This document shows, piece after piece, positions 9,578-55,702 of a stretch of 64,000 nt of DNA. The stretch's first letter is position 1. Each line of letters starts with the position of its first letter. Source of the stretch: Rhodothermales bacterium (lineage in GTDB: Bacteria; Bacteroidota; Rhodothermia; Rhodothermales; Bin80); contig OZ241742.1 in assembly GCA_965200955.1 (NCBI GenBank), positions 2,951,072 to 3,015,071 on the forward strand, read 5' to 3'. The notes under the pieces were generated by a model. That model was not told where the DNA came from, did not search any database, and saw only the letters and a program-made list of their open reading frames with translations. A program made the translations under genes and the position numbers.

Positions 9578-11287
9578 TCATTGATATTCAAGAAAGAGCG
9601 TTCTGTCGTGCAACCAAGGAATCTTCCCTTGTGAGCCGATATAGCCTGCACTCCGCAGTTCTGAGTTGTGTGCATGTCGGTTGAATTTCACGATGACCCG
9701 GTCCTTGTCGGTGATGACTTTGCCGGATACTTTGACGAGTTTCTCAAACAGGGTTTTATTTTTCGCGACACGATAAAGCGGGTCCAGTCTTTTTGCAAAC
9801 GCTTGATAGAGCGTACTGGCGATGATGGTGAGTTGTAAATCCAGATCAATGCGCATCGGTATCGTGCTTGACAGTGCGTCCATGTGGAAGAAATTAATGG
9901 CATCCTGGATCGCGTTTTCAACCAGCATGCGCCGTGCGTATCTGTCAATGAGTTCAGCAGCACCCTGCTTCATGTAATTGGTAATCAGCAGGGTTGGCAG
10001 TTCATGTCCAAGTCCTTTGATTGCAAGTTGACGTAGTGGATCTGGATAATTCGTTAGCGTGATTATTTGATCCAGAACATAAGGCTTGGAGTACCTCCGT
10101 CCGATATTGTGAAGTTGGATCTTTTTCCATTGATCACTGGGGGACTGATTGATCTCATCCACGATAGAAGGCGCACGCTTGCGTAAGGTTAGGAAGTAGA
10201 TTCCAAGAGCATTGAGTCTGGCTAGATTTGCATAGGTCGTAAATCGACTGTCAAATACCAGATCCTTTGGAAGCTCGCCTGTTCGCTGTTTCCAACTTTC
10301 AATGAACGAAAAAATGGCATCATTCTGGGTTTCTTTGGTGATTTTAGCATCCCCATAGATCAAGACGCACTGGCTGGCTTCCCGAACCACCAAAGCTAGG
10401 ATCCCACGCTGACGACGGCTACGGCTCGAGACAAAATGTTTCTGCATCAGCAATTCATCTCCATGATAGGGAATCGTATGAAAATCCAAGTCAAATGACT
10501 TTTCCGAGGTTGGTACCCATTGTTGAGCGATCCGATGCCATCCTGCCATCAATCGATCCAGATGATCAAGGTCTACTCTGCTACTGTATTCGGACAAGGT
10601 GGATTTTTTGGGGATCACATTGAGTCCGGCAAACAGGGCTATGCCCTCGTCCAGAACACTTGGCATCACATGATAGGGGCGTCCAATTCCCCAGAGTTTG
10701 AGCGCTAGCAAGGAGCGGATCATGGTCAATGCAGGAATCCTCTTGCTAGTAGGCCAGGTGGTTAGAAGCTGCCCAATGTTGGCATCTGCCAACTCCCGTG
10801 CAAAGAGAAACAAGCCAGCGAACTGTGTAGAAAACGTTGACGACGTTGCGTGGAATCGGCGAACGTCAGCCTGTGCAGCAATGGTCACTTTGGGAGATGT
10901 ACGAATGGAGCGTCGTGGCAATTTTGGGATACCAGCCTGCTTGAGAACAAGTCCGATGGTGGTGGTCCCTGCCTTGATTCCCTCCTCCGATAGGCGTTGA
11001 TGAATCTCGGCATTGGAGAGATGTTCTTTAAGGCGTAATTCAAGGATGCGCTGATCGCGTTTGGAGCGTTGCACCTCTGCGGGGCGGTCAAACAAGGGAA
11101 TCGCCCCCGATTTGCGTAGTTCAGAGGCTAGATTACGGAGGGTTCCCTCATTGAGTCCGAACTGTTTAGCAATGGCGGCCCAGGGTTTTCCCTCAACAAA
11201 ATATGCACGCAGGGCTTCGTAGAGTCTGAGTTTGTGCAGATCGGGATTCAGGAAGAGATGTGCAAATTGTTGGGATGATTTTGTCAT
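9578..11287 (-). CDS. DDE transposase with N-terminal HTH
   Basis: The N-terminal AIAKQFGLNEGTLRNL looks like an HTH. It also has FDLDFHTIPYHGDE and a C-terminal Y-x2-R-x3-E signature (DRYARRMLVEN) typical of the IS4 superfamily. Confidence 0.8.
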   Translation of the reverse strand: MTKSSQQFAHLFLNPDLHKLRLYEALRAYFVEGKPWAAIAKQFGLNEGTLRNLASELRKSGAIPLFDRPAEVQRSKRDQRILELRLKEHLSNAEIHQRLSEEGIKAGTTTIGLVLKQAGIPKLPRRSIRTSPKVTIAAQADVRRFHATSSTFSTQFAGLFLFARELADANIGQLLTTWPTSKRIPALTMIRSLLALKLWGIGRPYHVMPSVLDEGIALFAGLNVIPKKSTLSEYSSRVDLDHLDRLMAGWHRIAQQWVPTSEKSFDLDFHTIPYHGDELLMQKHFVSSRSRRQRGILALVVREASQCVLIYGDAKITKETQNDAIFSFIESWKQRTGELPKDLVFDSRFTTYANLARLNALGIYFLTLRKRAPSIVDEINQSPSDQWKKIQLHNIGRRYSKPYVLDQIITLTNYPDPLRQLAIKGLGHELPTLLITNYMKQGAAELIDRYARRMLVENAIQDAINFFHMDALSSTIPMRIDLDLQLTIIASTLYQAFAKRLDPLYRVAKNKTLFEKLVKVSGKVITDKDRVIVKFNRHAHNSELRSAGYIGSQGKIPWLHDRTLFLEYQ

Positions 11288-33701: not shown

Positions 33702-36005
33702 TTAAGATGTTAGTGACTGGAGACCGGATGCCTCAGAAATAAATTGCTGAAGTGTACTCCCCGAATTATCAACAAGTTTGTCTATTTCAGACAGAGAAAG
33801 CTTTAAACGATATTTAGGGTTGGAATGATCGACAGATTCCACAAGATGTATCTTTTCTAATTTCGGGAGAATTTTGTTTATAAAATGGCTTGACTGACTA
33901 CCTAATCGAAGAGTAATGTCATTGCGATTTATTGTGGTTGACCGATTGAACATCCGAATAAAACGCAATGTTGTTTTCACATCAGGATCAATGTTAAATT
34001 CCGTGGGTGATTCAAGGACCTCATCCTGAGGTGTTTTAAACCTGATATCAATACCTTTATTCCTTAAGACCGCACGCACATGAGTTGGATTGAAAATTTT
34101 TTGGTGATCTTCTTCCTCACCATTGCCAACCGATACTGAATCAAAAATACAATTTTCGAAAACTGTGCCGTCAAATCTAGGTCTTGAACGATCATCAAAT
34201 ATGAGCTCTGTAAAACGACAGTCATGGAACTGACTGTCAATAAAGATGGAATCATCTAAACTTGTTGAGCCAAACAGAGAGTCATGTACGCTAAGCCCAC
34301 GAATCTCGCGTTGCTGTAGAGAGTTCGGGGGGAAATTCGTTTCAGAGATTTTATATGGATTTGTTGCATGTCGTAATAATTCTAGTATAAGTGTTCCACA
34401 ATTTTCTCTGAAGTAAGATACCCTCGGCTTTTCTTGAGATAAATGTTCTAGGTCTGTGAGAATGTTATCAATTGTGATTGTGTCTTGATTATTTGTCAGA
34501 AAACGGGTTGCTTCAAGGATGACGGACTTGCTCAGAGCATTAGCATTTAAAATTAACCTTGCGTCTGATTTTTCAGATTTAATCAGTGACCGACCAAGAG
34601 CTTGTCCTAAATAAAATTCCAGAAAATCCTCATGATCAAAGCGAATTCTAGATTGTCGCGTAGGGCCCTGCGATTTATCCTCCCGAAGGAGTGAATGATC
34701 TTTGATTCGTCTACATATCTGTCTTTCCACATTAGAACTGAGATTATTCTCGGCTGTGAAAAACTCTATAACCAGTTCTATAATATCAAATCGAAGGGAA
34801 TCTACTGCATTGACCCACATTTCAGAAGCAATCTGTGAGAGCAATTTGTGATGTTGGTCAATTGTAAGGAGCGGAGAGTGATCAATCCCTGAACGATCAA
34901 TCCATTTATCTTGTGCCTCACGCTTAACTATGACTTCAATAAACTCGAAAAAGTAATCAACCTGCGTCTGACCAAGTTTTTCCAAGAATTTTTCTAAATC
35001 ATCATCTTCTTTCGCTACATCAATGAGTCTACGAACGAGTACGGCTCTTGTGAGCACTGGATGTTTTGAACTGTTGAGCCGTTTTTTTACGCGTTTGTAA
35101 AGCAGATCTGGGTTGGGTACACCGCGAAGTGATGCATATTTTGAAAAAACTTGACGATCCCATCTGTTGAGAACGAATCTCTGAATTTTTACATCATGAT
35201 CAGATCCAATAGATTCAAGTAATTTTGCTTGAGAATTTAGCGATTGATCGAAATATGCTTTTCGAGCTGCAATGAGTAGCGTACCAGATGAGGACAACTG
35301 ATCTACAAGATGCCCAAGAGCAGAGACTGCTTCAGTAGAACTCACATCTACAAGCACTTCTTCAAACCCATCAAATGCTGGAATAATTGCATTCATTTTT
35401 ATGAGTTCAATAAATGAATCATAGTATAAGTATGGAAATCGTAGCCGATTCATCAAAGAGGCAATCACAACATCATCAAAGCGCAGGAAAGATCTACCAC
35501 CAAGAGCAACTGGGAGAATTAATGTACTGGTTTTTTTGTTCTTGAATGCAAGGGCCTGTTCAATAGAAATTTTTTCAATCAAGGATGTTTTACCTTCTCC
35601 CGCATCAGAAGTGAGAAAATTAATTAATGTCATACCAGCGTGAAAATTCGTCAAACGCTTTCGCAAATGAGCAATAGAATCAATTGATTGATCTGTTTTC
35701 ACAGGCTCATTTTTCCAATCAAGTAGGTTAACATTTGGGGACACATAATTTTCCGGGGGTTGAATATAGTCAATAATACGCTGTGCAAGCATATCTATCT
35801 TCGCCAAATATGAGAATATCCAAGATCTTGCATAGCTCTCAACTCCATTATGAATGACAATCACACCATGCTGAGGATCGTTTTTGATCTCAGCTTCAAC
35901 TGGTTTACCTCGAATAAACATGAGTAGGTTGCCTTCGTCAACAACCATCTCGTTTTCTTGGTCTGTAAATGTGGTAACAATACGTTTGAAATCTTGGAAT
36001 TGCAT
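33702..36005 (-). CDS. NACHT-like (STAND) P-loop NTPase with pentapeptide repeats and a possible C-terminal winged-helix domain; N-terminal ~130 aa unknown
   Basis: Walker A is FLTSDAGEGKTSL (about 35583-35620). The NACHT-type Walker B is IIPAFDGFEEVLV, followed by LLIAARKAYF. Six consecutive xxFxx pentads read SLFGS TSLDD SIFID SQFHD CRFTE LIFDD. The gene starts 11 nt after the NYN gene stop. Confidence 0.6.
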   Translation of the reverse strand: MQFQDFKRIVTTFTDQENEMVVDEGNLLMFIRGKPVEAEIKNDPQHGVIVIHNGVESYARSWIFSYLAKIDMLAQRIIDYIQPPENYVSPNVNLLDWKNEPVKTDQSIDSIAHLRKRLTNFHAGMTLINFLTSDAGEGKTSLIEKISIEQALAFKNKKTSTLILPVALGGRSFLRFDDVVIASLMNRLRFPYLYYDSFIELIKMNAIIPAFDGFEEVLVDVSSTEAVSALGHLVDQLSSSGTLLIAARKAYFDQSLNSQAKLLESIGSDHDVKIQRFVLNRWDRQVFSKYASLRGVPNPDLLYKRVKKRLNSSKHPVLTRAVLVRRLIDVAKEDDDLEKFLEKLGQTQVDYFFEFIEVIVKREAQDKWIDRSGIDHSPLLTIDQHHKLLSQIASEMWVNAVDSLRFDIIELVIEFFTAENNLSSNVERQICRRIKDHSLLREDKSQGPTRQSRIRFDHEDFLEFYLGQALGRSLIKSEKSDARLILNANALSKSVILEATRFLTNNQDTITIDNILTDLEHLSQEKPRVSYFRENCGTLILELLRHATNPYKISETNFPPNSLQQREIRGLSVHDSLFGSTSLDDSIFIDSQFHDCRFTELIFDDRSRPRFDGTVFENCIFDSVSVGNGEEEDHQKIFNPTHVRAVLRNKGIDIRFKTPQDEVLESPTEFNIDPDVKTTLRFIRMFNRSTTINRNDITLRLGSQSSHFINKILPKLEKIHLVESVDHSNPKYRLKLSLSEIDKLVDNSGSTLQQFISEASGLQSLTS

Positions 36006-36016
36006 CTGACTGATAT

Positions 36017-36719
36017 TTACAATCTTTTTAGGGAATAGTGCTCACTACGAAGTTTTCTGAAAGGATTGCCTCGCCTCCTAATAGATTTGGGGATGAAGTG
36101 GATTAATTCAACATGATTGATAAGTGCATATCGAATGCCAGGCCACATATCATCATCTCCAGATACCAAAACAACAGGTTCTTTTGTAAACATGGACAAA
36201 TGAACTAAATCTGTAACGATCATTGAATCCACAAGTTTCTGTTCAGTCCTGTAAAAAGTGTCATCTGGTGTTACACTACATTGATCATGACCACAGATTT
36301 TTCTACGAAAAAAATGAATGTACCCCTGAGAGATAGCATTGACCCTTATCAACGCAGTGTGCGAAAGGAAAACTTTCTAATCTTAGAGGTGGCAGGTTTG
36401 ATCGAGTTCTAAATGTATTTGGAAAATGATTTCCTTCATCACATATTAGAGATGTAGCCAATTCGGGCCGATTAATTTTTATTTTTTGACCTAATACTTG
36501 AACCACTCGCGGAAAACTCCTCTTTATTTGACCAGATAACTTTGATGCTAAGGGTGTCAACTTATATCCTCTATATAACCATCCTCCATACAATCTGCAC
36601 TGTGAAACTTGTGAATCAGAAATTGAGACTGGAGATTTTTCCAGTATTTGTTCTATAATGTTAATGAGTCTCATTTCTTTTAGTCTTCCCAAGTTATCAT
36701 AGTCAATCAGAATGGTCAT
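36017..36719 (-). pseudogene. NYN/LabA-like (PIN-fold) nuclease with Cys4 zinc-ribbon-like insert, split by a +1 frameshift in an A7/T7 run
   Basis: MTILIDYDNL and RLYGGW are NYN N-terminal motifs. HCVDKGQC...SFF then changes frame at 36308-36314 to RRKICGHDQC...EQKLVDSMIVTDL...VVLVSGDDDMWPGIRYA (NYN C-terminal motifs). Removing one A restores a 233-aa ORF. Confidence 0.6.
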
Positions 36720-36783: not shown

Positions 36784-37794
36784 TCAAACTTCAACAAAAT
36801 CTCGTCTAACAGCATGAGCAACTTGCTGAAGCTGAACAAATAAGTCAAAAAACTGATCAAGCCTCAGAACCTGCAATCCCCTTTCAGATGCACTGAGCAA
36901 GTCATCATGTCCATCTATGATCGCACCAGCCCCAACGGCCCCAGATGACAATGGAACGACGTAATCCCGAATGCCTACTCCTTGAGAGGGATCTACGATC
37001 ACGGGGAGATGACTTTTGGCTTTCGCAACCGAAACCCCAGAAAGATCAAGAGTATGCCGTGTGGCAACCTCAAAGGTACGAATCCCTCTCTCACACAAAA
37101 TGGCTTGCGAATTACCTGATTTCATGATGTACTCTCCTGACTTGATTCACTCTTGTATAGTCGTAGCCAAACCATATTAAAGTAACTCTGTCCGATAATT
37201 TCTACCAATGCACGCAAGAACTCAAAATTCCGATATAACGAGTTCCCACTTTAAAGTACTCGCATCATTACCAAATTGATCCATGGACTCAGTGGAATCA
37301 ACTTCTAAGATCAGTTTAACTCACATTCAGTAGCTACCTGACACTCCATTTCAACGCTTCCTCTGGATCTGTTGATACTCATGGAACGATGTGTGAGGCT
37401 TGACCATACTTGCACGAATCACAGATACACCTAATAAGACTATCTGAGTAAAACTATCTTTTGAAATTACTCTGTACATTCAATACTTGATAATGCTCCC
37501 ATCAAAATGACTATATTCCCCCACCCCAGTCTGAAATCCATCCACATCAATAATGGATGAATTGGAGCGGCCAGCACGACTGGCTAGTTTTTAGAGTTCG
37601 GTAACGCGTTGCACCTCAGCAACACCACGAAAATTGTTAATGATTCTGTAATCAAATCCAGGCCAAACCATATTAATCCTTAGTACGTTTGGCTGACTCC
37701 ACTGGAACAATGAATCAAACCCAAAGGCATTTAAGTTGGTGATAACGGCTTCAACTTCTTCTTCCGAAGCATGATTTTTCACGATAACAACCAT
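36784..37794 (-). pseudogene. aroF: type I-beta DAHP synthase with N-terminal ferredoxin-like regulatory domain, heavily decayed but still co-linear
   Basis: The N-terminal MVVIVKNHASEEEVEAV... resembles the Thermotoga-type regulatory domain. The middle reads KLASRAGRSNSSIIDVDGFQTGVGEYS...RASMVKPHTSFHEYQ (cf. GGAYKPRTSPYSFQG) with several stops. The C-terminal AILCERGIRTFEVATRHTLDLSGVSVAKAKSHLPVIVDPSQ is preceded by ATTIQE-TGA-IKSGEYI. Confidence 0.8.
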
Positions 37795-37842
37795 GGCAGC
37801 TACGTTTGATTGCGGAGATGTTAGGGTGTCAGTAGTTTCACG

Positions 37843-41650: not shown

Positions 41651-42715
41651 CTAGAAGTTACCTCTTGGATGAAGAAACCCTTTTTTTATGAGCAATTCGG
41701 CATTTAAGATTGCACCGCCCGCGGCTCCTCTAACCGTGTTGTGGGACAAGACAACAAACTTGTAATCTAACACTTCGCATGGACGAATTCTGCCGATACT
41801 CACGGTCATTCCTTGTCCAAGATCCAAATGTCTTCGTGGCTGAGGGAAACGTTCTTCATCAAAAATATTCAGAAATTTCGCTGGCATTGAAGGTAAATCA
41901 AGATCTGCAATAGGACTTGAATACGATTCCATCGCCTGACGAATTCCAGCAGGGGTCGTATTAGAGTCCAACTGCACCGAAACGCATTCAAGATGCCCTT
42001 CCAAAACAGGTACACGATTGCATTGAGCACTGATGGCGATGGAAGCCTTCTGCAATTGATTTCCATCCAGAAATCCAAGCAGTTTATTGGGTTCTTGAAC
42101 TAGTTTATCCTCTTCTCCACCAATAAATGGGACCACATTTCCCAATGCATCTAGAGAAGAGACCCCTGGATATCCCGCACCAGAAAGAGCCTGCATCGTA
42201 GTTACATGCACAGCCTTGACACCGAAGCAGTCATGGAGAGGCTTTAATGCACATGTTAAACCGACCGTTGAACAATTGGGGTTCGTTACAATGTATCCAT
42301 TACTCTGCCAATCCTGTTGGTGAATGAGAGCGATGTGATCAGGGTTGACCTCGGGGATGAGTAGCGGAACACGCTCGTCCATCCGATAACTCTTCGCATT
42401 GGAAATTACAGGAAAACCGGCTTTAGCAAGATGTGGCTCCGCATGATCGGCAACGGAAGCATGAAGTCCTGAAAACACAAAATCACAAGGTAAATCGCGA
42501 CCCAAAGGCAATACTTCCATGGATGCCACATACGCTGGAATATCTGCAGTCCCAATCCAGTTGACCGCTTCACTATATCGACATCCTGCAGATCGCTCAG
42601 ATGCAACCAGAGCCGACACCTTAAACCAGGGATGGTCCGCCAGAAGTTCTATAAACTTTTGGCCAACTGCTCCAGTGGCACCGAGAATTCCAGCCCGAAG
42701 CTTACGCATCATCAT
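41651..42715 (-). CDS. asd: aspartate-semialdehyde dehydrogenase
   Basis: AGILGATGAVGQ, NPNCSTVGL (active-site Cys), ALSGAGYPG. The gene ends in TAG. Confidence 0.9.
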   Translation of the reverse strand: MMMRKLRAGILGATGAVGQKFIELLADHPWFKVSALVASERSAGCRYSEAVNWIGTADIPAYVASMEVLPLGRDLPCDFVFSGLHASVADHAEPHLAKAGFPVISNAKSYRMDERVPLLIPEVNPDHIALIHQQDWQSNGYIVTNPNCSTVGLTCALKPLHDCFGVKAVHVTTMQALSGAGYPGVSSLDALGNVVPFIGGEEDKLVQEPNKLLGFLDGNQLQKASIAISAQCNRVPVLEGHLECVSVQLDSNTTPAGIRQAMESYSSPIADLDLPSMPAKFLNIFDEERFPQPRRHLDLGQGMTVSIGRIRPCEVLDYKFVVLSHNTVRGAAGGAILNAELLIKKGFLHPRGNF

Positions 42716-43162: not shown

Positions 43163-46100
43163 TCAAATACTCGTAAAATGACCGACATAAACATCTGCAG
43201 AACCACTGTCCTGAGATGTAGCCATCATCCGATATACATACGATCCTGACGGAAGCTTCAGATCATCTAGTTCTAATTCAAGACCTGTTCCTGCACTCAT
43301 GCTGACTGGAGACTTTTCATACACACGCCGGCCCGTAATGTCTAACACCTCTACCTGTATTTGAGCGGATCTCGGCAGATCAAACACCAACTGGGTTGAA
43401 TGCACAAATGGGTATGGGTAATTGGAGTGCACCACAAATTCTTCCACCAAATGTGCTTGCTCTTGCGTATTGACTGGAGAAACCACTTCAATGGTACAGT
43501 TCAAGCTATCCTGCCCACCTTTGGTATCCACTGCCATATAGGTAAACGGCCCGGGCGGACTAATGACCATGGGGGTACCACTGATAGTCCTCGCTGAAAC
43601 ATCAAACATCAACCCTAATGGAAGATCAAAAAGATTCAGTGTGTATTGGATTGGAGTCCTCCCACCGGTCACTTCAGGTAAAATAAGCGGAGGAATCGCC
43701 TGCCCTCTTGAATAGGATTGATGATCAATGCTCTCACTAAAGGATAGTGCGTACACTTCAAGATTGAACTTCAGACTGGCCACCATACCCGTAGCATCCT
43801 CTACTGCCCATGTATACAAGGTCTCTGGGGTGATGTTTGAAGGAGTTCCGCTGATCGTACGAGTAGACTCATTTAAAGTTAATCCCTTGGGAAGTGTTGG
43901 TGTCAACGTATAGTCATAAGGCATCACTCCCCCATTTGGTGCAGGTAGACTCCACTCTGAAAGTACAATTCCTACAGGATAGAATTGATTTTCTATAGTA
44001 GTGGCTAAATGATACGACTGCATTCGTCGTTGCATTCCTGATCGGTGATGAAACACTTGCCCCTTCAGAATTGATGGCACTGACCCGATAGTAATGAGTC
44101 GTATTCGGCGGAAGATTTGTATGATCGTAGGAGGTTACCGCAGATCTGGTATTGGATTCTATATCCATCCATCCAGAGATTCCATCAAAAAAACCTTCAA
44201 TCCGGTAACCGGTGATCTCTGCTCCTCCATCAGCAAGAGGTGCAATCCACGAAAGACTGATCCTCGTCGTTCCAGTAGCCGTCGCCGTTAACCCGGTGGG
44301 TGCATCAGGAACCGTGACGATATCGTCGGACTCTGTAGTAGCATTGACCACATCTGAAACTGCCCCTGCACCTGTAGCGTTGAGGGGACTGACACGATAG
44401 TGGCGAACGGTATTCGGCCGCAAAGGACTGTCTGAATATGAAGTGATCGTAGAACCCGTATTGGACTCCAAATCCGTCCATCCAAACGTTCCCGAGGGAG
44501 ACACTTCAATCCACTAACCTGTTATTGGTGCATCTCCATAATCGGATGGAGCATTCCAGGAAAGATTGATCTATTCACTCCCCGAAGCGATTGCTGATAC
44601 ATCTGTTGGCACACTTGGAAGTGCTTCCGATAATGGTTCAGTCGTTGCACTCACCACATTAGAAGAGGCACCTGAACCCTCAGAGTTAACAGCACTGACA
44701 CGATAGTAACGAGTCGTATTTAGAGAAAGATTTGTCTCAGAATATCTGGTCGCCCTAGAACCCGTGTCATCCACTAAATCCGTCCATCTAGATGATCCAT
44801 CTGGAGACACCTCAATCCAATAACCGGTAATCGCCGTGCCTCCATCATCAGATGGTTCATCCCATGATAGATCAATCGTCCTACTCCCAGAAGCTGTCGC
44901 AGTTAATCCAGTGGGAGCATCAGGAATCGTAGTGGCTGGTACTATGGTCGCTTGACTACACTGGAAGCATCACCAGTGCCCACAGAATTGATGGCACTCA
45001 CTCGGTAGTAACGAGTGGTATTTGGCGAAAGATTCGTGTCAGAATTGGTGGTGGTTTTTGAACCCGTGTCCGCCACTATATTCGTCCACTCAGAAGATCC
45101 ATTTGGAGACCCTTCTATCCGATATCCGCGAATCTCTGCTCCTCCATCATCAGATGGGGAGCTCCATGAAAGAACAATGGTCGTACTGCCCGAAGCGGTC
45201 TCAGATACTTGGATAGGTGCACTTGGAAGGGCTTCCGTGCTGGACCCAGTGGTTGCAGAAACGACATTTGAAGAGACACCCGAACCAGCCGTGTTGATTG
45301 CACTGACACGATAGTGGTGAGTCGTATTCGGAGAAAGATTGGTATGAGAGTATCCAGTGACACCTGAATTCGTATTGGACTCCAAATCGATACACCCTGT
45401 CCTTACATTAGAAGAAACTTCAATCTGGTAACCGGTAATGGATGCACCTCCGTTATTGGATGGTGCGTTCCACGATAGGTTGATGGTCGTACTTCCCGAA
45501 GGTGCAGCAGATAGTGAAATGGGTGCGTCTGGGACGGTGACCGTAACTGCGGGAGCAGTGGTTGCACTGACCACATTTGATGATGTACCCAAACCAGCGG
45601 AATTGATAGCCCGTACACGATAGTGACGGGTCGTGTTCGGAGAGAGATTACGGTGGGAGTATTGGGTGGCATCTGAATCCGCATTGGACACTAAATCCTT
45701 CCACCCAGATGTTCCATTTGGAGATACTTCAATCCTGGTAGCCTGTAATGGATGCGCCTCCATTATCAGATGGTGCCCCCATGAAAGATCAACCGTTCTA
45801 CTCCCAGAAGCCGTAGCGGTTAATCCAGTGGGTGCATCAGGGACGCTTACCGTCTCTTCATCCGCCGGATCACTCCTCACATATACGGACAGGGAAGGTC
45901 TTCCTGTACCAATCGAATTGATCGCGCTCACCCTATAGTATAGAAATGTTGAGGGCTTTAAATTCTTGTGAGTATAACCAGTGGTATCTGAACGAGTGTC
46001 CTGTTCCACAGCATACCAACCAGATCCAGATTTTAAGGCTTCAATCTGATAGGCAGTGATCGTTGCTCCCCCAGTATTTGATGGCGCTTGCCAAGAAAGA

Positions 46101-47556
46101 TCAATCATCGTACTACTCGAGGCGGATGTTTTTAGGTTAGTCGGTGCATCAGGAAGGGAATAAGTAGTCGCTTTGACTACCTTTGATTTTGTACCTGCTC
46201 CCTTAAGTTTTGATAACGCTAACACGGTAGTAATGAGTTGACCCTAGTTTCAGATTACTGTGAGTGTATGTAGTCTCAGTGTTTTCGGTATTGACATCCA
46301 GTGGTGACCACACTAATTATAGCGTGAGGTTTCTATCCTGTATCCGGTGATTTCCGCTCCCCCATCATCTGATGGTGGATTCCAAGAAAGTTTGATCTAA
46401 TTACCACTGATGGGAGTTGCAGACAGGTCGGTAGGAACTGCTGGAGCCATAAGCGGCCGAGAAGTCGTTGCCTTCGCGATATTGGATGCTTCACCAGTAC
46501 CAATACACTCACTGCACTTACGCGATAGTAACGGGTCACTCCAGGAGAAAGAAACTTATCGGAATACGTCGTAGAACTAGAAAATCCTCTTTGAATCTCC
46601 CAGTCTGATCTTCCATTTGGAGAAACATCAATTCTGTATCCATTAATTTCAACACCTCCATTATCGGTCGGTGCACTCCACGAAAGATTAATCGTATTTT
46701 CACCTGATGCCTGAGCCTTCAATCTCGTCGTCGCATCTGGAATATTAAACGTTCTGAATGAGCCTGATTCAGACCATGATGAATGAAAGCCACCAGGACC
46801 CAAAGATTGGGTACGAAACCGAAATACCGTTACCGGTGTACTTCAAGGAACAGTATAGAATGTTTGTAAGAGATCCACCAGTAGAAATTCTTGACCATGA
46901 TGAACTACCTGTTTTAACTTCAAGATGAATCCCTCTACTTGGTATTTGAGCATCTGGAAAGCTCCATTTAATCAATAAAGTATAGACATCAATAGCACGT
47001 GAGTGCAACGTAATGTTCAAGATGATCGATTGATGAATTTGTAACAAAGTTTCATCAGATTCAAAATAAAATGGATGTCCCATATTGCCCTACTCTACCA
47101 TGTATGCAATCGGAGAAGAAAAAACTGATGGAGCAGAGCACTGTTCTACTGATGTGACTCCTGACAAACCTCCATCATAATGCACAACCATGCGATGGGA
47201 ATCTTCATACTCATGTTCATCATCGTCATTTGAAAAAACTTCTTGTACTATCAATTTCTCTGTGAAAATTCTATGCTGAGGATGAAGGATTATGTGATCC
47301 ACAGACTCAGCACTCTGGCAGTAGTACCCATCCTTTGTAAGGATGATGTGTTTTGAGAAGTCGCAGATGATCTTAAATCATCGGATATCTCTGGTTGATC
47401 CTCAGAAAAAATATACCGCTTCAACGTAGGTTCAGGATGTTCCTAAACATGACTGTTCTGGGAGTAGACCATCAAATATGTACCAACGAAATCATACTCT
47501 GTCGTAATAACTTCACCGAAAAGAGATGATAGGACAAATAAAAAAACATCAGCATA
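43163..47556 (-). pseudogene. giant T9SS surface protein (signal peptide, ~9-10 FN3 repeats, 2 Ig-like He_PIG repeats, Por sorting domain) broken into at least 7 pieces
   Basis: Six ORF-track pieces, plus unlisted frames, all read the same repeat: PDAPTGLTATASGSxTIxLSWxAPSxxGGAxITGYxIEVSPxGxSxWxDL...NLSPNTTxxYRVSAINSxG. In-frame TAGs lie at 44571-44573 and 44514-44516. Frameshifts lie at about 44945, 44030, 46230-46330, 46480 and 46800. The C-terminus is NYPYPFVHSTQLVFDLP...GSYVYRM. Confidence 0.75.
44080..46800 (-). repeat. tandem array of diverged ~0.3-kb (about 100-104 codon) FN3-encoding repeats
   Basis: LSW motifs recur at aa 43, 147 and 250 of the 427-aa piece. The copies are clearly related at nucleotide level but not identical. 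Confidence 0.8.
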
Positions 47557-48854
47557 AGTCTAAATGAACAAAAACAAAGAAAATCAATGAAGTACCAAAT
47601 AGATCAGTTGAATTTATTACTTTCAACTCCTACAACAATTTATTTTTACCCTGACGTACTTATGAAGCGATCTCAAGTCAAGGCATACTACTTTTCATAC
47701 AAAAATTCTAATTAAGATTGTCCTGCACAGATCTTTGAAGATTGCACAGTAGGACAGGGTGAAGAACTGATAGCCCAAAAATGTACATGTGCGAATTTTG
47801 AGTGCACACGATGATCCCCCTACAAAATCCAAGTGGACTCTGTGCGGAAGGAGAACTCATCATCCAAATATTCAGACCATTCGCAGGCTTAGATGATAAA
47901 CCACGATCTATAATGAGATTTAGAAAATATTCAATAGGTTGACAGACTCCAGGAGGGTTGAATGGGAGTCCATCAGAATAAAGATGGATGCACGATGCTC
48001 TATCCGCGGGGAATCATCATAATGGGGAGCGGGGAGGAAGGCAGGATCCTTTTCAAATTGACTGATAACCAAGGATTCCCACAGTGAGTCAGATGCATCA
48101 AGGGGAAGGTCTTCGAATCCTCGAATAAACAGCAGAAACATTCCCAACTCATACAGACAGAGATGAGACATCAGAATACCTCGCACTAAGAACCTGCAAT
48201 GTGGTCACACGCACAGCCTTAACACCAAATACGCTTTTGGAAATGTTGGGGAGTTCAACTTATCAAACAACATAGATACCTGTCTGAGATACATATCATC
48301 CAAATCAATGGTGTGACGGAGGCTTTTATTTCACAGAGGGTAGTGAGGCATATTCTCCACGCGAAAACTCTCTGGATAGAGGTTCAAGAAATAGATCTAT
48401 GCCCTTATATCATAATACGTATAGAGAAGAACTTCAAAAAACGCAAAACTATAGAAAACTGAAGCACACCAAAATATATTCCTTCGTAAGGCAACCAGAC
48501 AATCGTGCTCCACCCTATCCTTTTACTACTTCGACTTGGAGTTACTGGCCATCAATCTGATATAATTGGGGCGATTGCATCATGCAAGGATGATTGCTGA
48601 TAGTTTGATCATCAAGGGTTTGAAACAACTCAATAAAAGCGTCAAGCATACAAAGTAAGATGTGAACTTACTCGGGGATTGAAATTGCTGTAGAACTGAA
48701 TGATTTCTATTGCAAATCAAGAACTCCTCCCAGCCGTCAAGGGTCATGGTATTGGAGAACAACGCGACATAGGATTCCAGATGGAAGGATGGATCAATTT
48801 TAAGTAAAGAGGTTCAAAACGTTGATGCAATGATGATCCCAAAACACCGAATGA

Positions 48855-51594
<2,740 letters not shown>

Positions 51595-51737: not shown

Positions 51738-52900
51738 ATGATCTGTGATAGATTAAAACTATTCAAAAAATGGGGGAACGATTTAGTCACAAGACTAATT
51801 CGTCCGAAATACTGCAAGTCAACGAAAATGAGGAAAGCCACATTAATCTTCAAGTCATGTGTTCGTATCATCAGGAAAAAAGAACTTGTGCATCACTGGT
51901 CTTTTCTTGATACACACGGTGAAAAACTACCGGCACATGCATTGATGGCATTCAAGTATTGGGAATACGAGATCCAATATTACTCTCTCAATGTTCTTCG
52001 TGATGTTAGCCTACATTTAGCGGCTCATGGCTCATTTTGGAGGCCTTTTCTCAAAGATTCTGAGCTTACCCCATCAATGAAAATGGAAATTGAATCCGTT
52101 CTCAAAGATGTGAATGATCTCATTGTGTCATCCCATGCCAGTTTTAACCAAGTAAAATCTCAATTGTGTCATCTGCAATCTCTTGTTCCTTTTGTCAGAT
52201 GAAGATTCTATTTCCATTGAGGCTGTCCCAACTCCTGCTTTTGAGATTGTCTCTAAAGCAGAAGTTAAGGTCGGCACTTTTACTGGCGCTAAAATTCCAC
52301 TCTCCTGACATGGAGAAGGTACTCAAAGCCTTGCAGTTTTGATGCTATTTTTCGCTTTTCTGAAAAGTCATCCGAAAAATACTTCAATTTTAGCATTGGA
52401 GGAACCAGAAGCTCATCTACATCCATCAGCAACCCGAATTTTATGGATGCTCATTCAAGATTGTGCACATCAACGAATAATTTCAACCCACAGCGGTGAA
52501 CTCATTTCAGGTGCAGAAATGGTGATATTAGACATCTATCCCGAACCTCCGATGGAATTCAGGCATTTCAAATATCTAATGATCATTTATCTGACGAGAA
52601 AACCTTGAAATTCAATCACCATATTAGAAGAAGTAGAGGAGAATTGTTATTCGCACGTTGCTAGTTATTAGTAGAAGGGCAAACTGAAGTATGGATTTAT
52701 GAAGCAGCCGCTCAAACTTGTAACATTGATCTCCATCAAGCAGGCATCCTATTCGTTGAATTTCAACAATCTGGTGGAGTAGAAATGCTCGTCAAAGTGG
52801 CTAATCCCTTAGGAATTGAATGGTACTGAGTTGGAGATAACGATCATGAGTCTTCTAAAATTTAAAGCACGTCACTATTTTCGAGAAAAAGTGTCCCTCA
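51738..52900 (+). pseudogene. OLD-family (ABC-ATPase + Toprim) nuclease, 5'-truncated and decayed
   Basis: IPLS-TGA(52306)-HGEGTQSLAVLMLF...ILALEEPEAHLHPSA...IISTHSGEL, with a frameshift near 52520. Then RGELLFARC-TAG(52662)-LLVEGQTEVW...GIEWY-TGA(52827)-VGDNDHE (Toprim ExG...DxD). No Walker A region remains. Assignment of the first ORF (51738-52202) is weak. Confidence 0.55.
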
Positions 52901-53117
52901 TCATCGTATAGGGTGGTTTGACTAGCAGAGGTAGGAAACGACTTATGAAGTCTACCAATGGGTGTTTGAACAACGAAATCGAGTACCCGTAGGACATTAG
53001 AATCGTGCCGACATCGTGACTCTAAACCCCCATTAGATGGAACAGCAGATAGTTCCACGAGGTGCATTAGACTTTGAATTGATGAAAGTTTGAACCAGTT
53101 CAACATTACGTAGTAAC

Positions 53118-53384
53118 GTGCATGTTAAGAATCTTAAACATGAAATTTTCATGATACCTCAAGATGTTGAGAAAGTCTGCAAAACCAAGGTGGAACTTCT
53201 TGCTGCACTTCAAGATGTAGAAGTATCTGACGAAGTGTGGATTGAATTATCTAACATCGTGGGTAAATTCTTTGCCCAACGAGCAACATTGAAAGCCAAT
53301 CAAGTTGTAGATAAAGAAGGCTGGACTGAAGATGATTTTCACCGTCTTGCACATACGCACATGCGTACTCCTTACCGTCCTTGA
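53118..53384 (+). CDS. putative antitoxin of the adjacent PIN toxin
   Basis: An 88-aa acidic protein that ends 3 nt before the PIN gene ATG. The call rests on position and size only. Confidence 0.4.
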   Translation: MHVKNLKHEIFMIPQDVEKVCKTKVELLAALQDVEVSDEVWIELSNIVGKFFAQRATLKANQVVDKEGWTEDDFHRLAHTHMRTPYRP

Positions 53385-53387
53385 ACA

Positions 53388-53805
53388 ATGTGCCTCCGAT
53401 CCGTAATTGATACGAACATTCTTCTAGTCTCAATTTCGGACAGATCACCTTATCATTGGTTTTTGATGGGCTACATAAGGGTTTCTATTCCCTATTATTA
53501 GTACGCAGATTGCTCTTGAATACGAAGAAGTAATTGGGCAAAAAATGGGACAAAGCGCAGCCTCAGATGTGATTGAAGCCCTTGAATGTCTTTCTAACGT
53601 ATTGCTTATCTCTAAACACTATCAATGGAACATGATAAAATCTGATCCAGATGATAACAAGTTTACGGATTGTGCAGTTGCCGGAAGAGCTGACTGTATA
53701 GTAACCTACGATAAGCATTTCAAAGAACTGAATCAAACTCATTTCCCTTCTATCTCAACGGTAACTCCCGAAGAATTCAAAATCTTACTGAATAGTCCAT
53801 CTTGA
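53388..53805 (+). pseudogene. PIN-domain toxin (TIGR00305-like), two frameshifts
   Basis: Frame a reads MCLRSVIDTNILLVSISDRSPYHW. Frame b reads FDGLHKGFYSLLL, after the shift at the T5 run 53460-53464. Frame c reads TQIALEYEEVIGQ...KSDPDDNKFTDCAVAGRADCIVTYDKHF, after the shift near 53500. Confidence 0.65.
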
Positions 53806-54247
53806 ATGATGTGTTGCGGTCTATAACTATCAATGCAAGGTTTTGCCCATTTTTTCACTTAGAAACAATTCTTAATTAATTCTTTCGACCGCCAATTCAT
53901 CTTTTCTACACAGGTTTGTATATCCGAACAATTCGTAATGCGAGAAGAATTAGTTACACCAATCAAAACGATATAGTGCAGTTGATGGACATTAGTCTTC
54001 AAGTTGATACTCCTGAGCTATCCAAGGACAACACAAACAGTCCTCCACTTAACTTTAACCTTTTTGTACTATGAACAACCTACAACCTTTCTCTGTATCG
54101 GGAGAATATCCATGCGAATCAAGTTCCTATCAAAATACGAATTGATGCTACATCTCAAGTACGCGATGCTATTTTCATGCTAATCAAAGATCTCGGAATG
54201 AGTCCAATCAAATGCGTGATGGAGTATGTGGAGTCCTTCTGGTTCGC

Positions 54248-55702
54248 TCACCTGCGGGGCAAATCCCCCACTCCCTTCGTTGGTAAAGCAATAAATCCTG
54301 ATAAGTAAGCATCTGCATGTCGTGCCGCTTCACGGCCTTCACTGATTGCCCATACCACTAAGGACTGTCCTCTACGAGCATCCCCCGCAGCAAAAATTCC
54401 GGGCATATTCGTCTGATACTGATGATCCGTCTTAAAATTACTGCGTCGGTCAAGTTTAATCCCAAGAGGATCCGCGATACCATCTGACTCGGGTCCGCTG
54501 TATCCAATGGCAAGAAGAACCAAATCAGCTGGCCAGTCTTGATGGGTATCTGGATGTTCAATAATTTTCTGCCCCTTGAACTCGGTCCGAACCGTTTTCA
54601 AACTTTTCACTTGACCATGTTTGCCCATAAATTCCTTGGTCATGATACTCCAGTGACGATCACCGCCTTCCTGATGCGAGGAACTGGTTCGAAGAACCAT
54701 CGGGTAATAAGGCCAAGGTTGATGATCTGGACGCTCATCAGGAGGAGTAGGCAGGAGTTCAAACTGCGTTACAGACTTGGCACCCTGTCGATTTGCCGTC
54801 CCTACACAGTCGCTACCAGTATCCCCTCCACCGATGACGATGACATGTTTTCCAGCTGCATTGATCTGATGAATATTCTCCCGGCACAGATCATCACCTA
54901 GATTAAGCTTATTCTGTTGACGCAGATAATCAAATGCATAGTGAATTCCCGTTAATTTTCGTCCTCGTACGGGTAGATTTCGAGGCTTGGTGGCACCTGT
55001 ACAAATGATCACAGCATCAAACTCCTGAAGGCGTGAACATGCATAAGAACCGCCTACATTGGCACGGGTGATAAACTGAATCCCGCTTTTTTTCAAAAGA
55101 TCCAAACGACGATCCAAGACCCATTTCTCTAACTTAAAGTCAGGAATCCCATAGCGGAGGAGCCCTCCAATTCTGTCATCCCGTTCTAATACGGTGACGC
55201 GATGACCCGCTTGATTCATCTGATCAGCAGCCGCGAGCCCCGCAGGACCTGAACCGATGACCGCGACCTGCTTCCCAGTCCGCCGAGCAGGCTGTTGAGA
55301 CTTTACCCATCCCTCACGAAATGCATACTCAATAATTTCCTGCTCAATCTGCTCAATCGTCACAGGATCGTCAATGATGCCAAGCACACATGCAGTTTCA
55401 CAGGGGGCGGGACAAATTCGACCGGTAAATTCTGGAAAATTATTGGTAGCCGTGAGTCGTTGATAAGCTGCTTTCCAATCTCCTTGATAAACAAGATCAT
55501 TCCAGTCGGGAATGACATTCCCGAGCGGACAGCCAGATTGACAAAATGGAATCCCGCAATCCATACATCTGGCAGCCTGATGACGCAGACTCTCTTCCGC
55601 AAATGGTTCATACACCTCACGCCAGTCCTGAAGTCGATCCCCGACAGATCGATAAGCAGGCAGCTCCCGCTGATACTCAATAAATCCGGTCGTTTTTCCC
55701 AT
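54248..55702 (-). CDS. gltD: glutamate synthase small subunit (NADPH)
   Basis: MGKTTGFIEYQRELP starts at the ATG at 55702, 5 nt after the gltB stop. CMDCGIPFC is the Fe-S site, and VAVIGSGPAGLAAA is the dinucleotide fold. The ORF-track start at 55828 is an extension into gltB. Confidence 0.9.
   Translation of the reverse strand: MGKTTGFIEYQRELPAYRSVGDRLQDWREVYEPFAEESLRHQAARCMDCGIPFCQSGCPLGNVIPDWNDLVYQGDWKAAYQRLTATNNFPEFTGRICPAPCETACVLGIIDDPVTIEQIEQEIIEYAFREGWVKSQQPARRTGKQVAVIGSGPAGLAAADQMNQAGHRVTVLERDDRIGGLLRYGIPDFKLEKWVLDRRLDLLKKSGIQFITRANVGGSYACSRLQEFDAVIICTGATKPRNLPVRGRKLTGIHYAFDYLRQQNKLNLGDDLCRENIHQINAAGKHVIVIGGGDTGSDCVGTANRQGAKSVTQFELLPTPPDERPDHQPWPYYPMVLRTSSSHQEGGDRHWSIMTKEFMGKHGQVKSLKTVRTEFKGQKIIEHPDTHQDWPADLVLLAIGYSGPESDGIADPLGIKLDRRSNFKTDHQYQTNMPGIFAAGDARRGQSLVVWAISEGREAARHADAYLSGFIALPTKGVGDLPRR

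What the first reader, a model, noticed from the sequence alone, without database searches (positions are those of the whole stretch)
43163..47556. A 4.4-kb FN3-repeat T9SS adhesin gene shattered by both nonsense and frameshift mutations
About nine to ten diverged ~100-aa FN3 repeats, then two Ig-like repeats and a Por sorting domain, can be followed through at least three frames. Two TAG codons 54 nt apart lie in the repeat frame. One replaces the conserved Tyr of ITGYxIEV (44514-44516), and the other falls at a variable repeat position (44571-44573). The signal-peptide region (about 47556) is also interrupted. What must have been the largest surface protein in the window is no longer made as one chain.
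Basis: seen in the sequence. Interest (0 to 1): 0.55.

Follow-up and report, generated by a model that had tools for sequence, protein, structure and literature searches.

The report
Dead FN3-repeat surface-protein gene
This is a real, recently inactivated and still decaying pseudogene of a large secreted fibronectin-III-repeat surface protein in a Rhodothermales bacterium (probably sponge-associated), which makes it an ordinary kind of feature, although an unusually well documented one.

Summary
On the minus strand, 47555-43163 carries one former gene: an N-terminal region with no known family, nine Pfam-confirmed FN3 repeats (a tenth is only suggested), two He_PIG Ig-like domains and a T9SS-type C-terminal domain. 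It can only be read by switching among all three frames.

The window allele has about 10 frameshifting indels and 6 in-frame stops, including both reported TAGs at exactly 44571-73 and 44514-16.

It is not an artefact. Four other independent assemblies (97-98% identical) carry the same locus, and it is broken in all of them. They share five lesions, and each also has private ones. Intact neighbouring genes have no frame-breaking indels. pN/pS is about 1.1-1.4 in the pseudogene and 0.2-0.6 in the neighbours. No intact allele was found among 5.8 billion protein clusters.

More than 20 related genomes lack the gene and have metX directly next to asd. In the window, the 1.07 kb upstream of the pseudogene is a heavily decayed second asd copy, giving the layout metX, ψasd, ψFN3, asd. 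This fits an old duplicative insertion followed by recent death of the FN3 gene.

The window holds several other pseudogenes. Interest is low to moderate.

The parts
43163..47555 (-). Whole FN3-repeat / He_PIG / CTD pseudogene. The conceptual product is about 1,460 aa, of which the 1,310 aa from R0 to the stop was repaired and scanned.
47090..47555 (-). N-terminal region of unknown family. Candidate start is the ATG at 47555-47553, followed by a T7 run and a hydrophobic stretch in another frame. TAG at 47445-47443. Frame change near 47317 (L081 has +A there). The window-specific +G at 47093 creates the TAG at 47092-47090.
   Evidence: No Pfam match and no homologue, so the frame assignment here is tentative.
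46745..47089 (-). Putative divergent FN3-like unit R0, with a frameshift at about 46855 and a TGA at 46845-46843. Both lesions are present in every allele.
   Evidence: The FN3 nature is judged by motif only and is not confirmed by Pfam.
46460..46740 (-). FN3 repeat R1, with a frameshift at 46507 shared by all alleles.
46160..46444 (-). FN3 repeat R2. TAG at 46399-46397 (CAG in L082/L084). The 1-nt deletion at 46316 is window-only. The 1-nt insertion at 46206 is in the window and L081.
45857..46153 (-). FN3 repeat R3, intact.
   Evidence: 154 bits.
45545..45841 (-). FN3 repeat R4. A -G in a G-run at 45781 (window and L081) is compensated 46 nt downstream by a window-only +G at 45735. As a result 14 codons are out of frame inside the 427-aa ORF.
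45227..45532 (-). FN3 repeat R5, intact.
   Evidence: 158 bits.
44945..45226 (-). FN3 repeat R6. A 1-nt deletion at 44952 in the linker to R7 is present in the window and L082/83. L081 is in frame there.
44619..44924 (-). FN3 repeat R7, intact.
   Evidence: 165 bits.
44325..44618 (-). FN3 repeat R8, with TAG at 44573-44571 and TAG at 44516-44514 (Tyr of ITGYxIEV). Both are in all five alleles. The other alleles also have TGG->TAG at about 44557.
44019..44309 (-). FN3 repeat R9. A +C at 44004 in the linker to He_PIG is present in the window and L081. L082/83/84 read through here.
43478..43942 (-). Two He_PIG (putative Ig) domains.
   Evidence: 68.8 bits against a cut-off of 24, 2 stretches..
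43163..43444 (-). T9SS type-A-like C-terminal sorting domain plus the stop codon.
   Evidence: TIGR04183 scores 21.3 against a cut-off of 23, and PF18962 scores 16.8 against 27. The module is 38% identical (E 4e-45) to the He_PIG+CTD of the intact T9SS cargo at 3674-6685.
47656..48718 (-). ψasd, a heavily decayed second copy of aspartate-semialdehyde dehydrogenase. It lies where asd sits in related genomes, directly after metX.
   Evidence: and 28 for synteny.
41651..42715 (-). Intact asd, downstream flank.
48855..49991 (-). Intact metX (homoserine O-acetyltransferase), upstream flank.

Best explanation
The region is the corpse of one lineage-specific gene for a large cell-surface protein. The order of parts was: an unknown N-terminal region, nine (perhaps ten) FN3 domains, two He_PIG Ig-like domains, and a type-IX-secretion C-terminal sorting domain.

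When intact, the product would have been exported by Sec, recognised through its CTD by the T9SS, and displayed on or released from the outer membrane. There the FN3/Ig stalk most plausibly mediated attachment. This functional step is inferred from domain content, not shown.

The gene is absent from this position in more than 20 related Rhodothermales, where metX abuts asd. In this lineage it lies between a decayed asd copy (ψasd) and the working asd. The gene therefore most likely arrived in an old duplicative or Campbell-type insertion that left two asd copies, one of which then rotted. This step is also inferred.

Much later the FN3 gene itself was inactivated. Five lesions (two frameshifts, one TGA, two TAGs) are shared by all sampled strains and so predate their divergence. 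Since then each strain has collected private 1-nt indels and nonsense mutations. Substitutions fall equally on all codon positions, with pN/pS about 1, which indicates neutral decay. These points are shown directly.

No fragment keeps both an export signal and the CTD, so no functional surface protein can be made.
For: Architecture:
- Searches show 9 fn3, 2 He_PIG and a C-terminal CTD-like domain.
- The He_PIG+CTD module is 38% identical (E 4e-45) to that of an intact S8-protease/LRR T9SS cargo in the same window, whose CTD passes TIGR04183 (28.3 against a cut-off of 23).

The lesions are real:
- The same locus was recovered from ENA ERZ23497209 (L081), JGI 3300009910 and 3300009846 (L082, L083) and Logan SRR22390445 (L084), at 97-98.6% nucleotide identity.
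- Both R8 TAGs, the 46507 frameshift, and the R0 frameshift and TGA are in all of them.
- Other lesions are strain-specific.
- The repeats are only 65-73% identical at the DNA level, so repeat collapse is implausible.
- Only one indel lies in a homopolymer.

Neutral evolution:
- There are 0 frame-breaking indels in 7,961 nt of intact neighbouring genes, against 9 and 6 in the 4.4-kb pseudogene (p = 9e-5 and 2e-3).
- pN/pS is 1.40 and 1.08, against 0.19-0.62 in neighbours (Fisher p = 6e-5 and 3e-3).
- Codon-position counts are uniform (16/19/12), against a third-position bias in neighbours.

No intact allele:
- The best non-self hits are at most 59% identical.
- All members of the three 90% clusters are 502 aa or shorter, across at least 6 assemblies.

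Lineage-specific insertion:
- metX and asd are adjacent (110-160 bp apart) in L001-L025, and there is no FN3 homologue at that position.

ψasd:
- Three matches to asd are collinear, all at an offset of about 6004 nt.
- The asd HMM scores 9.0 bits against a shuffle maximum of 2.7.
- The global DNA alignment scores -10, against -185 +/- 11.5 for shuffles and -164 to -193 for control regions.
- ψasd is closer to the window's own asd than to the asd genes of 22 relatives, including those of equal GC.
Against: - The CTD scores fall just below the curated thresholds (21.3 against 23, and 16.8 against 27).
- The T9SS machinery genes themselves are not in the window.
- No signal peptide could be demonstrated, and the N-terminal ~230 aa has no detectable homologue. 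The original start, and any catalytic or binding head domain, are therefore unknown.
- 'Adhesin' rests on domain content alone.
- Lesions are distributed in every pairwise combination of strains (window+L081, window+L082, L081+L082). This does not fit a simple tree and needs recombination or recurrent mutation.
- Several strain-specific indels restore local frame (45735 in the window, 44952 in L081, 44004 in L082). This could be chance, or it could hint at residual selection on parts of the array.
- The duplication model for ψasd is not supported by any detectable similarity in the flanks beyond the asd coding region.
- The sponge origin is inferred only from sample and MAG labels.
Confidence: 0.88

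Rival explanations
1. Sequencing or assembly artefact. Under this reading the gene is intact in the cell, and the frameshifts and stops come from long-read indel errors or from mis-assembly of the repeat array.
For: The region is a tandem array with a period of about 300 nt. The window ORF is held on a 4.19-Mb chromosome-scale contig, which may be a long-read assembly. One indel lies in a G5/G6 run (45781).
Against: Five independent assemblies from different archives reproduce the locus and share the two TAGs, the TGA and two frameshifts. L082 and L083, from two JGI samples, have identical indel states. About 8 kb of neighbouring intact genes show no frame-breaking difference between the window and the other assemblies. 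The repeats are only 65-73% identical, which is too diverged to collapse. Nonsense substitutions are not a typical long-read error, and most indels are not in homopolymers.
Confidence: 0.02
2. The gene is still functional through recoding or switching: programmed ribosomal frameshifting, TAG read-through or reassignment, or slipped-strand phase variation of a contingency locus.
For: In the window allele, five of the six in-frame stops are TAG, while only 2 of 29 long ORFs in the window end in TAG. One indel sits in a G-run and one in a TGGA x3 repeat. Some strain-specific indels restore local frame.
Against: About 10 frameshifts in both directions would need simultaneous correction. Their positions are polymorphic among strains that are about 98% identical, rather than conserved. 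Most lie in non-repetitive sequence. Other alleles carry TAA stops and the window carries a TGA. TAG does terminate two long ORFs. pN/pS of about 1 and uniform codon-position substitution show there is no selection on the encoded protein.
Confidence: 0.03
3. Partial survival. One or more fragments are still expressed and useful as smaller proteins, for example the 427-aa FN3 ORF at 44942-46225 or the 305-aa He_PIG+CTD ORF at 43163-44080. This would make it a gene in pieces rather than a dead gene.
For: Long open frames persist. In the window, the -1 shift at 45781 is compensated by a +1 at 45735, which preserves the 427-aa ORF. Gene callers, and NCBI MAG annotations in particular, list the fragments as proteins.
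Against: No fragment combines an N-terminal export signal with the CTD, so none can be a T9SS substrate. The fragments differ in extent between strains: 502, 388, 285, 283, 223, 177 and 113 aa. The C-terminal ORF is itself broken in L081 (frameshift at 43472) and in L082/83 (two TAA stops). pN/pS computed over all in-frame segments is about 1. No promoter-like or terminator-like signal exceeds chance.
Confidence: 0.07

Closest known systems
T9SS type-A CTD cargo proteins of Bacteroidota with FN3/Ig stalks (surface adhesins and enzymes carrying TIGR04183 / PF18962), for example the intact S8-protease-LRR-He_PIG-CTD protein at window 3674-6685
   Same: Both have a modular extracellular architecture that ends in He_PIG plus a roughly 70-90-aa C-terminal sorting domain with the N-Y-P-x-P-F motif region. 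The modules are 38% identical (E 4e-45). Both belong to a lineage that uses T9SS cargo.
   Different: The gene here is non-functional. Its CTD scores slightly below the curated cut-offs. No signal peptide is demonstrable. Its head region has no known family.
Eukaryote-like FN3-domain proteins enriched and laterally transferred in sponge-associated bacteria (Robbins et al. 2021, PMC8163846; Kelly et al. 2022, PMC9531527)
   Same: It is a multi-FN3 protein in a Rhodothermales lineage whose nearest relatives carry sponge-MAG labels. The nearest FN3-array homologues (40-59% identity) often also carry ankyrin or LRR domains. The gene is lineage-specific and sits at a variable locus, as expected for an acquired accessory gene.
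   Different: The papers describe enrichment of intact genes. This is a copy being lost, and the host association of this genome was not verified here.
Pseudogenes of surface and accessory genes in bacteria under relaxed selection or recent host restriction (classical bacterial pseudogene decay)
   Same: Multiple small indels and nonsense mutations, pN/pS of about 1, strain-specific additional lesions, and other pseudogenes nearby.
   Different: Nothing is mechanistically different. The unusual aspect is only the level of documentation: five alleles that show shared and private lesions.

Membership tests
Fibronectin type III repeat protein (Pfam PF00041) | Domain HMM match above the gathering score, in tandem copies | tested here: met
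   fn3 scores 150 bits on the 427-aa ORF. On the repaired 1,310-aa protein it scores 313 bits in 9 stretches, against a cut-off of 25.
He_PIG putative Ig domain (PF05345) | HMM match above the gathering score | tested here: met
   68.8 bits against a cut-off of 24, in 2 stretches.
T9SS type-A cargo (TIGR04183 / PF18962 CTD) | C-terminal sorting-domain HMM at or above the curated cut-off | tested here: not met
   TIGR04183 scores 21.3 against 23. PF18962 scores 16.8 against 27. These are near misses and are consistent with decay.
T9SS type-A cargo (TIGR04183 / PF18962 CTD) | The domain lies at the extreme C-terminus and is homologous to a bona fide CTD in the same genome | tested here: met
   The domain occupies the last ~90 codons before the stop. 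It is 38% identical (E 4e-45) to the He_PIG+CTD of the protein at 3674-6685, whose CTD passes TIGR04183 at 28.3 bits.
T9SS type-A cargo (TIGR04183 / PF18962 CTD) | N-terminal Sec signal peptide | tested here: inconclusive
   There is a candidate ATG at 47555 and a hydrophobic stretch, but only across a putative frameshift. There is no homologue to anchor the frame.
T9SS type-A cargo (TIGR04183 / PF18962 CTD) | T9SS machinery (PorK/L/M/N, SprA, PorU/V) encoded in the genome | not testable with these tools
   Only the 64-kb window is available, and no machinery genes were seen in it. The presence of another CTD cargo is indirect support.
Pseudogene (non-functional gene remnant) | Reading frame disrupted relative to homologous domain models | tested here: met
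   Searches show about 10 frameshifts and 6 stops in the window allele.
Pseudogene (non-functional gene remnant) | Lesions reproducible in independent data, so not errors | tested here: met
   Five alleles from four archives or samples.
Pseudogene (non-functional gene remnant) | Neutral evolution: pN/pS of about 1, no codon-position bias, indels tolerated | tested here: met
Pseudogene (non-functional gene remnant) | No transcript or protein product | not testable with these tools
   No expression data are available.
Phase-variable contingency locus | Frameshifts confined to simple-sequence tracts that switch reversibly | tested here: not met
   Only 45781 (a G-run) and 44175 (TGGA x3) lie in repeats. 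The other indels are in complex sequence, and nonsense mutations are also present.
Programmed ribosomal frameshift / stop-codon recoding | Conserved shift or read-through site with purifying selection on both frames | tested here: not met
   The sites are polymorphic among strains that are about 98% identical, and pN/pS is about 1.

The most novel reading that the evidence does not exclude
The locus may be one visible piece of ongoing genome erosion in a sponge-associated Rhodothermales population.

- An accessory 'eukaryote-like' FN3 attachment protein was acquired long ago by an insertion that duplicated asd. The second asd copy has since rotted to ψasd.
- That protein has recently been discarded.
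- The same 64 kb also holds a dead DAHP synthase, a dead restriction-modification methylase, OLD-nuclease remnants and a frameshifted small gene.
- Lesions are shuffled among strains by recombination.

If the whole 4.19-Mb chromosome shows the same pseudogene load, this lineage would be a useful natural time series for how an extracellular sponge symbiont loses host-interaction and biosynthetic genes.
Probability: 0.25. Interest if true: 0.5.

Novelty: new member of a known kind. Interest (0 to 1): 0.3.

Why it matters
On its own this is an ordinary pseudogene, and annotation pipelines will simply report four to six 'fibronectin type III domain-containing protein' fragments.

Its value is practical and contextual:
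- It shows that these fragments are remnants of one dead gene and should not be counted as FN3 'eukaryote-like proteins' in comparative studies of symbiont genomes.
- It provides a clean, multi-allele example of neutral decay, with shared and private lesions, pN/pS of about 1 and tolerated indels. This can calibrate the indel-to-substitution ratio and pseudogene age in this lineage.
- Together with ψasd and the other pseudogenes in the window, it flags a genome that may have an unusually high pseudogene load and deserves a genome-wide census.

Tried and rejected
- Orthologue at the syntenic site. tblastn of all fragments against 80 asd-anchored loci from GTDB genomes found only one unrelated CTD hit, so the gene is not syntenic in relatives.
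- Intact allele elsewhere. Protein searches with the C-terminal module and with the FN3 ORF found only fragments of the same locus, or FN3 proteins at most 59% identical.
- N-terminal domain identity. The Pfam scan and the homology search on a repaired 233-aa N-terminal sequence returned nothing.
- More alleles from JGI metagenome contigs. Two exact-pattern scans around the Tyr->TAG site returned no match. The first pattern overlapped a SNP, and the second was verified against all alleles. The collection evidently lacks these samples.
- Exact-product look-ups for the window's asd and for P0142 found no record, so the source record and host could not be named.
- Tandem Repeats Finder does not see the array because the copies are too diverged.
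- The promoter and terminator scan found no more than chance.
- Similarity between the ψasd and asd flanks, which would delimit the duplicated unit, was not above shuffles.
- TAG reassignment was considered because most in-frame stops are TAG. It was rejected because of the frameshifts, the TGA and TAA stops, and the use of TAG as a normal terminator.
Full report
WHAT IS THERE

The feature lies on the minus strand. Three-frame translation of 47750-43100 shows, from N- to C-terminus:
- a ~460-nt region with no recognisable family (47555-47090);
- a possible divergent FN3-like unit (about 47089-46745);
- nine canonical FN3 repeats of about 100 aa;
- two He_PIG Ig-like domains;
- a C-terminal sorting-type domain ending at a triple stop (43165-43163).

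I built a profile from the best repeats and searched it against the three frames. It places the repeats at R1 46740-46460, R2 46444-46160, R3 46153-45857, R4 45841-45545, R5 45532-45227, R6 45226-44945, R7 44924-44619, R8 44618-44325 and R9 44309-44019. E-values run from 1e-17 to 1e-53.

Pfam agrees:
- fn3 and He_PIG pass their gathering scores on the individual ORFs.
- A conceptually repaired 1,310-aa protein gives fn3 in 9 stretches (313 bits) and He_PIG in 2.

The CTD is a near miss. TIGR04183 scores 21.3 bits against a cut-off of 23, and PF18962 scores 16.8 against 27. However, the He_PIG+CTD module aligns at 38% identity (E 4e-45) with the C-terminus of an intact S8-protease/LRR protein in the same window (3674-6685). 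That protein's CTD passes TIGR04183.

The repeats have start-to-start spacings of 292-315 nt and are only 65-73% identical at the DNA level.

THE LESIONS

The reading path changes frame at these positions:
- about 47317;
- about 46855;
- 46507;
- 46316;
- 46206;
- 45781 and 45735, a compensating pair that leaves 14 out-of-frame codons inside the 427-aa ORF;
- 44952;
- 44004.

A further shift in the T7 run just after the candidate ATG at 47555 is possible but not demonstrable.

In-frame stops lie at:
- 47445-43 (TAG, frame uncertain);
- 47092-90 (TAG);
- 46845-43 (TGA);
- 46399-97 (TAG);
- 44573-71 (TAG);
- 44516-14 (TAG).

The second one does replace the Tyr of ITGYxIEV. The 'interrupted signal peptide' remains unverified because the N-terminal ~230 aa has no Pfam match and no homologue.

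REAL MUTATIONS, NOT ARTEFACT

A protein search with the C-terminal module returned fragments 93-97% identical to it. Their contigs carry the same neighbourhood: gltD, PIN/OLD remnants, metY, metX, the FN3 fragments, asd, lptC/A/B. The contigs are:
- L081 from ENA ERZ23497209;
- L082 and L083 from JGI 3300009910 and 3300009846;
- L084 from Logan SRR22390445.

They are 97-98.6% identical to the window, and the gene is broken in every one.

Lesions shared by all alleles:
- both R8 TAGs;
- the 46507 frameshift;
- the R0 frameshift and its TGA.

Lesions shared by two lineages:
- window and L081: TAG 46399, +T 46206, -G 45781, +C 44004;
- window and L082/83: -T 44952;
- L081 and L082-84: TGG->TAG at about 44557.

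Private lesions:
- window: +G 47093, -A 46316, +G 45735;
- L081: +A 47317, -T 46505, +A 45620, -TGGA 44175, -C 43472;
- L082/83: two CAA->TAA mutations in the C-terminal module.

These are documented. Every pairwise sharing pattern occurs, which suggests recombination among strains or occasional recurrence.

The intact neighbours show no frame-breaking indel between strains. These are asd, metX, metY, lptB, the lptA-like gene and 33702-36005, 7,961 nt in total. The pseudogene shows 9 indels (against L081) and 6 (against L082).

Between-strain pN/pS is 1.40 and 1.08 in the pseudogene, with substitutions spread evenly over codon positions. In the neighbours it is 0.19-0.62 with a strong third-position bias (Fisher p = 6e-5 and 3e-3). 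The gene has therefore evolved neutrally since before these strains diverged.

The ratio of indels to substitutions between strains is roughly 1:10. Given about 9-10 indels in the window allele, inactivation appears only modestly older than the strain divergence. This is an inference.

NO INTACT COPY

- The FN3 ORF finds only its own allele at 90% identity or above. Everything else is at most 59% identical.
- All members of the three 90% clusters are 502 aa or shorter, across at least six assemblies.
- One member, P0142, is exactly the window's ORF and lies on a 4,189,794-bp contig.
- Two pattern scans of the JGI metagenome collection found nothing.

ORIGIN OF THE LOCUS

The asd protein identifies the organism as a Rhodothermales bacterium. 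Its nearest genomes are 77% identical at the amino-acid level. Several carry labels used for sponge MAGs (CAR3, IRC3, RHO1, SB0661) or belong to a series of chromosome-level MAGs. The sponge association is inferred, not verified.

In more than 20 of these relatives metX ends 110-160 bp upstream of asd, and no FN3 homologue lies there. Three relatives have a different insert at the same spot, an AlbA_2/Schlafen-like gene. The FN3 gene is therefore a lineage-specific accessory gene at a variable site.

The 1.07 kb between metX and the pseudogene (48718-47656) is not featureless spacer. It is a heavily decayed asd:
- Two protein matches and one DNA match to the window's own asd are collinear at a constant offset of about 6004 nt.
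- An asd HMM scores 9.0 bits there, against a maximum of 2.7 in 200 shuffles.
- The global DNA alignment scores -10, against -185 +/- 11.5 for shuffles and -164 to -193 for control regions.
- ψasd is closer to the window's intact asd than to the asd of 22 relatives, including relatives of equal GC.

The layout is metX, ψasd, ψFN3, asd. The simplest reading is an old duplicative (Campbell-like or tandem) event that placed the FN3 gene between two asd copies. The redundant upstream copy began to decay at once and is now about 62% identical. The FN3 gene stayed functional for much longer and died recently. I found no similarity in the flanks that would delimit the duplicated unit, so this model remains an inference.

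FUNCTION WHEN ALIVE

The domain content is an FN3 stalk, Ig-like domains and a T9SS CTD. A sister cargo with the same C-terminal module lies in the same window. Both point to a Sec- and T9SS-exported cell-surface protein.

Multi-FN3 proteins are reported as enriched and laterally transferred 'eukaryote-like' attachment proteins in sponge-associated MAGs (PMC8163846, PMC9531527). Many of the nearest FN3-array homologues also carry ankyrin or LRR domains. 'Adhesin' is plausible but unproven, because the head domain is unknown.

RIVALS

- Artefact is excluded by the independent assemblies and by the clean neighbours.
- Recoding or phase variation is excluded for several reasons. There are many bidirectional shifts in complex sequence. 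Their positions are polymorphic among near-identical strains. TGA and TAA stops are present. pN/pS is about 1.
- Residual function of fragments is unlikely. No fragment has both an export signal and a CTD. Fragment boundaries differ between strains. The C-terminal ORF is itself broken in other alleles.

Two small oddities remain. Five of six in-frame stops in the window allele are TAG, although TAG ends only 2 of 29 long ORFs. Several private indels happen to restore the local frame.

CONTEXT NOTICED

The window has a high load of dead genes:
- a DAHP synthase with many in-frame stops at 36796-37809;
- a small gene split over two frames at 36020-36518;
- an Eco57I-like methylase in three frames at 1179-2696;
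- OLD-nuclease fragments at 51738-53100.

There is also a DDE transposase at 9578-11287. ORFs of 200 aa or more cover only 66% of the window.

VERDICT

This is an ordinary biological phenomenon, a pseudogene of a known kind of surface protein. It is unusually well resolved here, and it has an interesting history (ψasd) and neighbourhood. Interest is 0.3.

Noticed in passing
window 47656-48718 (-): The 'intergenic' DNA upstream of the pseudogene is a heavily decayed second copy of asd (about 62% nt identity to the intact asd at 41651-42715). It sits exactly where asd lies in relatives, which gives the layout metX, ψasd, ψFN3, asd.
   Followed up: yes
window 36796-37809 (-): DAHP synthase pseudogene (FXD + DAHP_synth_1 type). 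It is 44% identical to the intact L001 orthologue over 348 aa but carries many in-frame stops. The other strains also show it only as fragments and differ from the window by several 1-2-nt indels.
   Followed up: partly
window 36020-36518 (-): The homologue of a 167-aa ORF in L001 is split across two frames: residues 2-68 at 36518-36318 and residues 73-167 at 36304-36020. It is probably another frameshifted gene.
   Followed up: partly
window 1179-2696 (-): Three overlapping ORFs in different frames, one of which matches the Eco57I restriction-modification methylase family. It looks like a frameshifted R-M gene.
   Followed up: partly
window 51738-54248: About 2.6 kb between gltD and metY holds OLD-family/TOPRIM fragments, a PIN_3 toxin-like ORF and indel-rich non-coding DNA. 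In relatives this spacer is only about 0.4-0.6 kb, so this is a decayed, lineage-specific defence/TA islet.
   Followed up: partly
window 3674-6685 (-): An intact 1,003-aa T9SS cargo: S8 subtilase, leucine-rich repeats, He_PIG and CTD. Its C-terminal module is paralogous (38% identity) to that of the pseudogene.
   Followed up: partly
window 33702-36005 (-): A 767-aa ORF with no Pfam family is 10.4% divergent from L082 but only 2.2% from L081, while its neighbours differ by about 1%. It is a recombinant or hypervariable gene. It has a weak, sub-threshold hit to the anti-phage HalA model.
   Followed up: no
window 9578-11287 (-): A 569-aa ORF with an HTH and a DDE_Tnp_1_4 transposase domain. 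This is an insertion-sequence transposase.
   Followed up: no
window 43163-47555 (in-frame stops): Five of the six in-frame stops in the window allele are TAG, although TAG ends only 2 of 29 long ORFs in the window. This is probably chance or mutational bias. The other alleles add TAA stops.
   Followed up: partly
window 45735-45781 (-): A -1 frameshift (G-run) and a window-specific +1 frameshift 46 nt downstream compensate each other. This keeps a 427-aa ORF open with 14 nonsense-free out-of-frame codons. Other alleles have neither change, or only the first.
   Followed up: yes
L006 7988-9799, L008 5780-7495, L010 7989-9800: In three relatives the metX-asd spacer holds a different insert, a 517-588-aa AlbA_2/Schlafen-like protein. 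This spacer is therefore a recurrent insertion site for accessory genes.
   Followed up: partly
whole window: ORFs of 200 aa or more cover only about 66% of the 64 kb. Together with at least 6 pseudogenes, this suggests a low coding density and a high pseudogene load.
   Followed up: partly
window 51458-51578 (-): SAM (S-box) riboswitch upstream of the metY-metX operon (Rfam RF00162, 77.5 bits).
   Followed up: no
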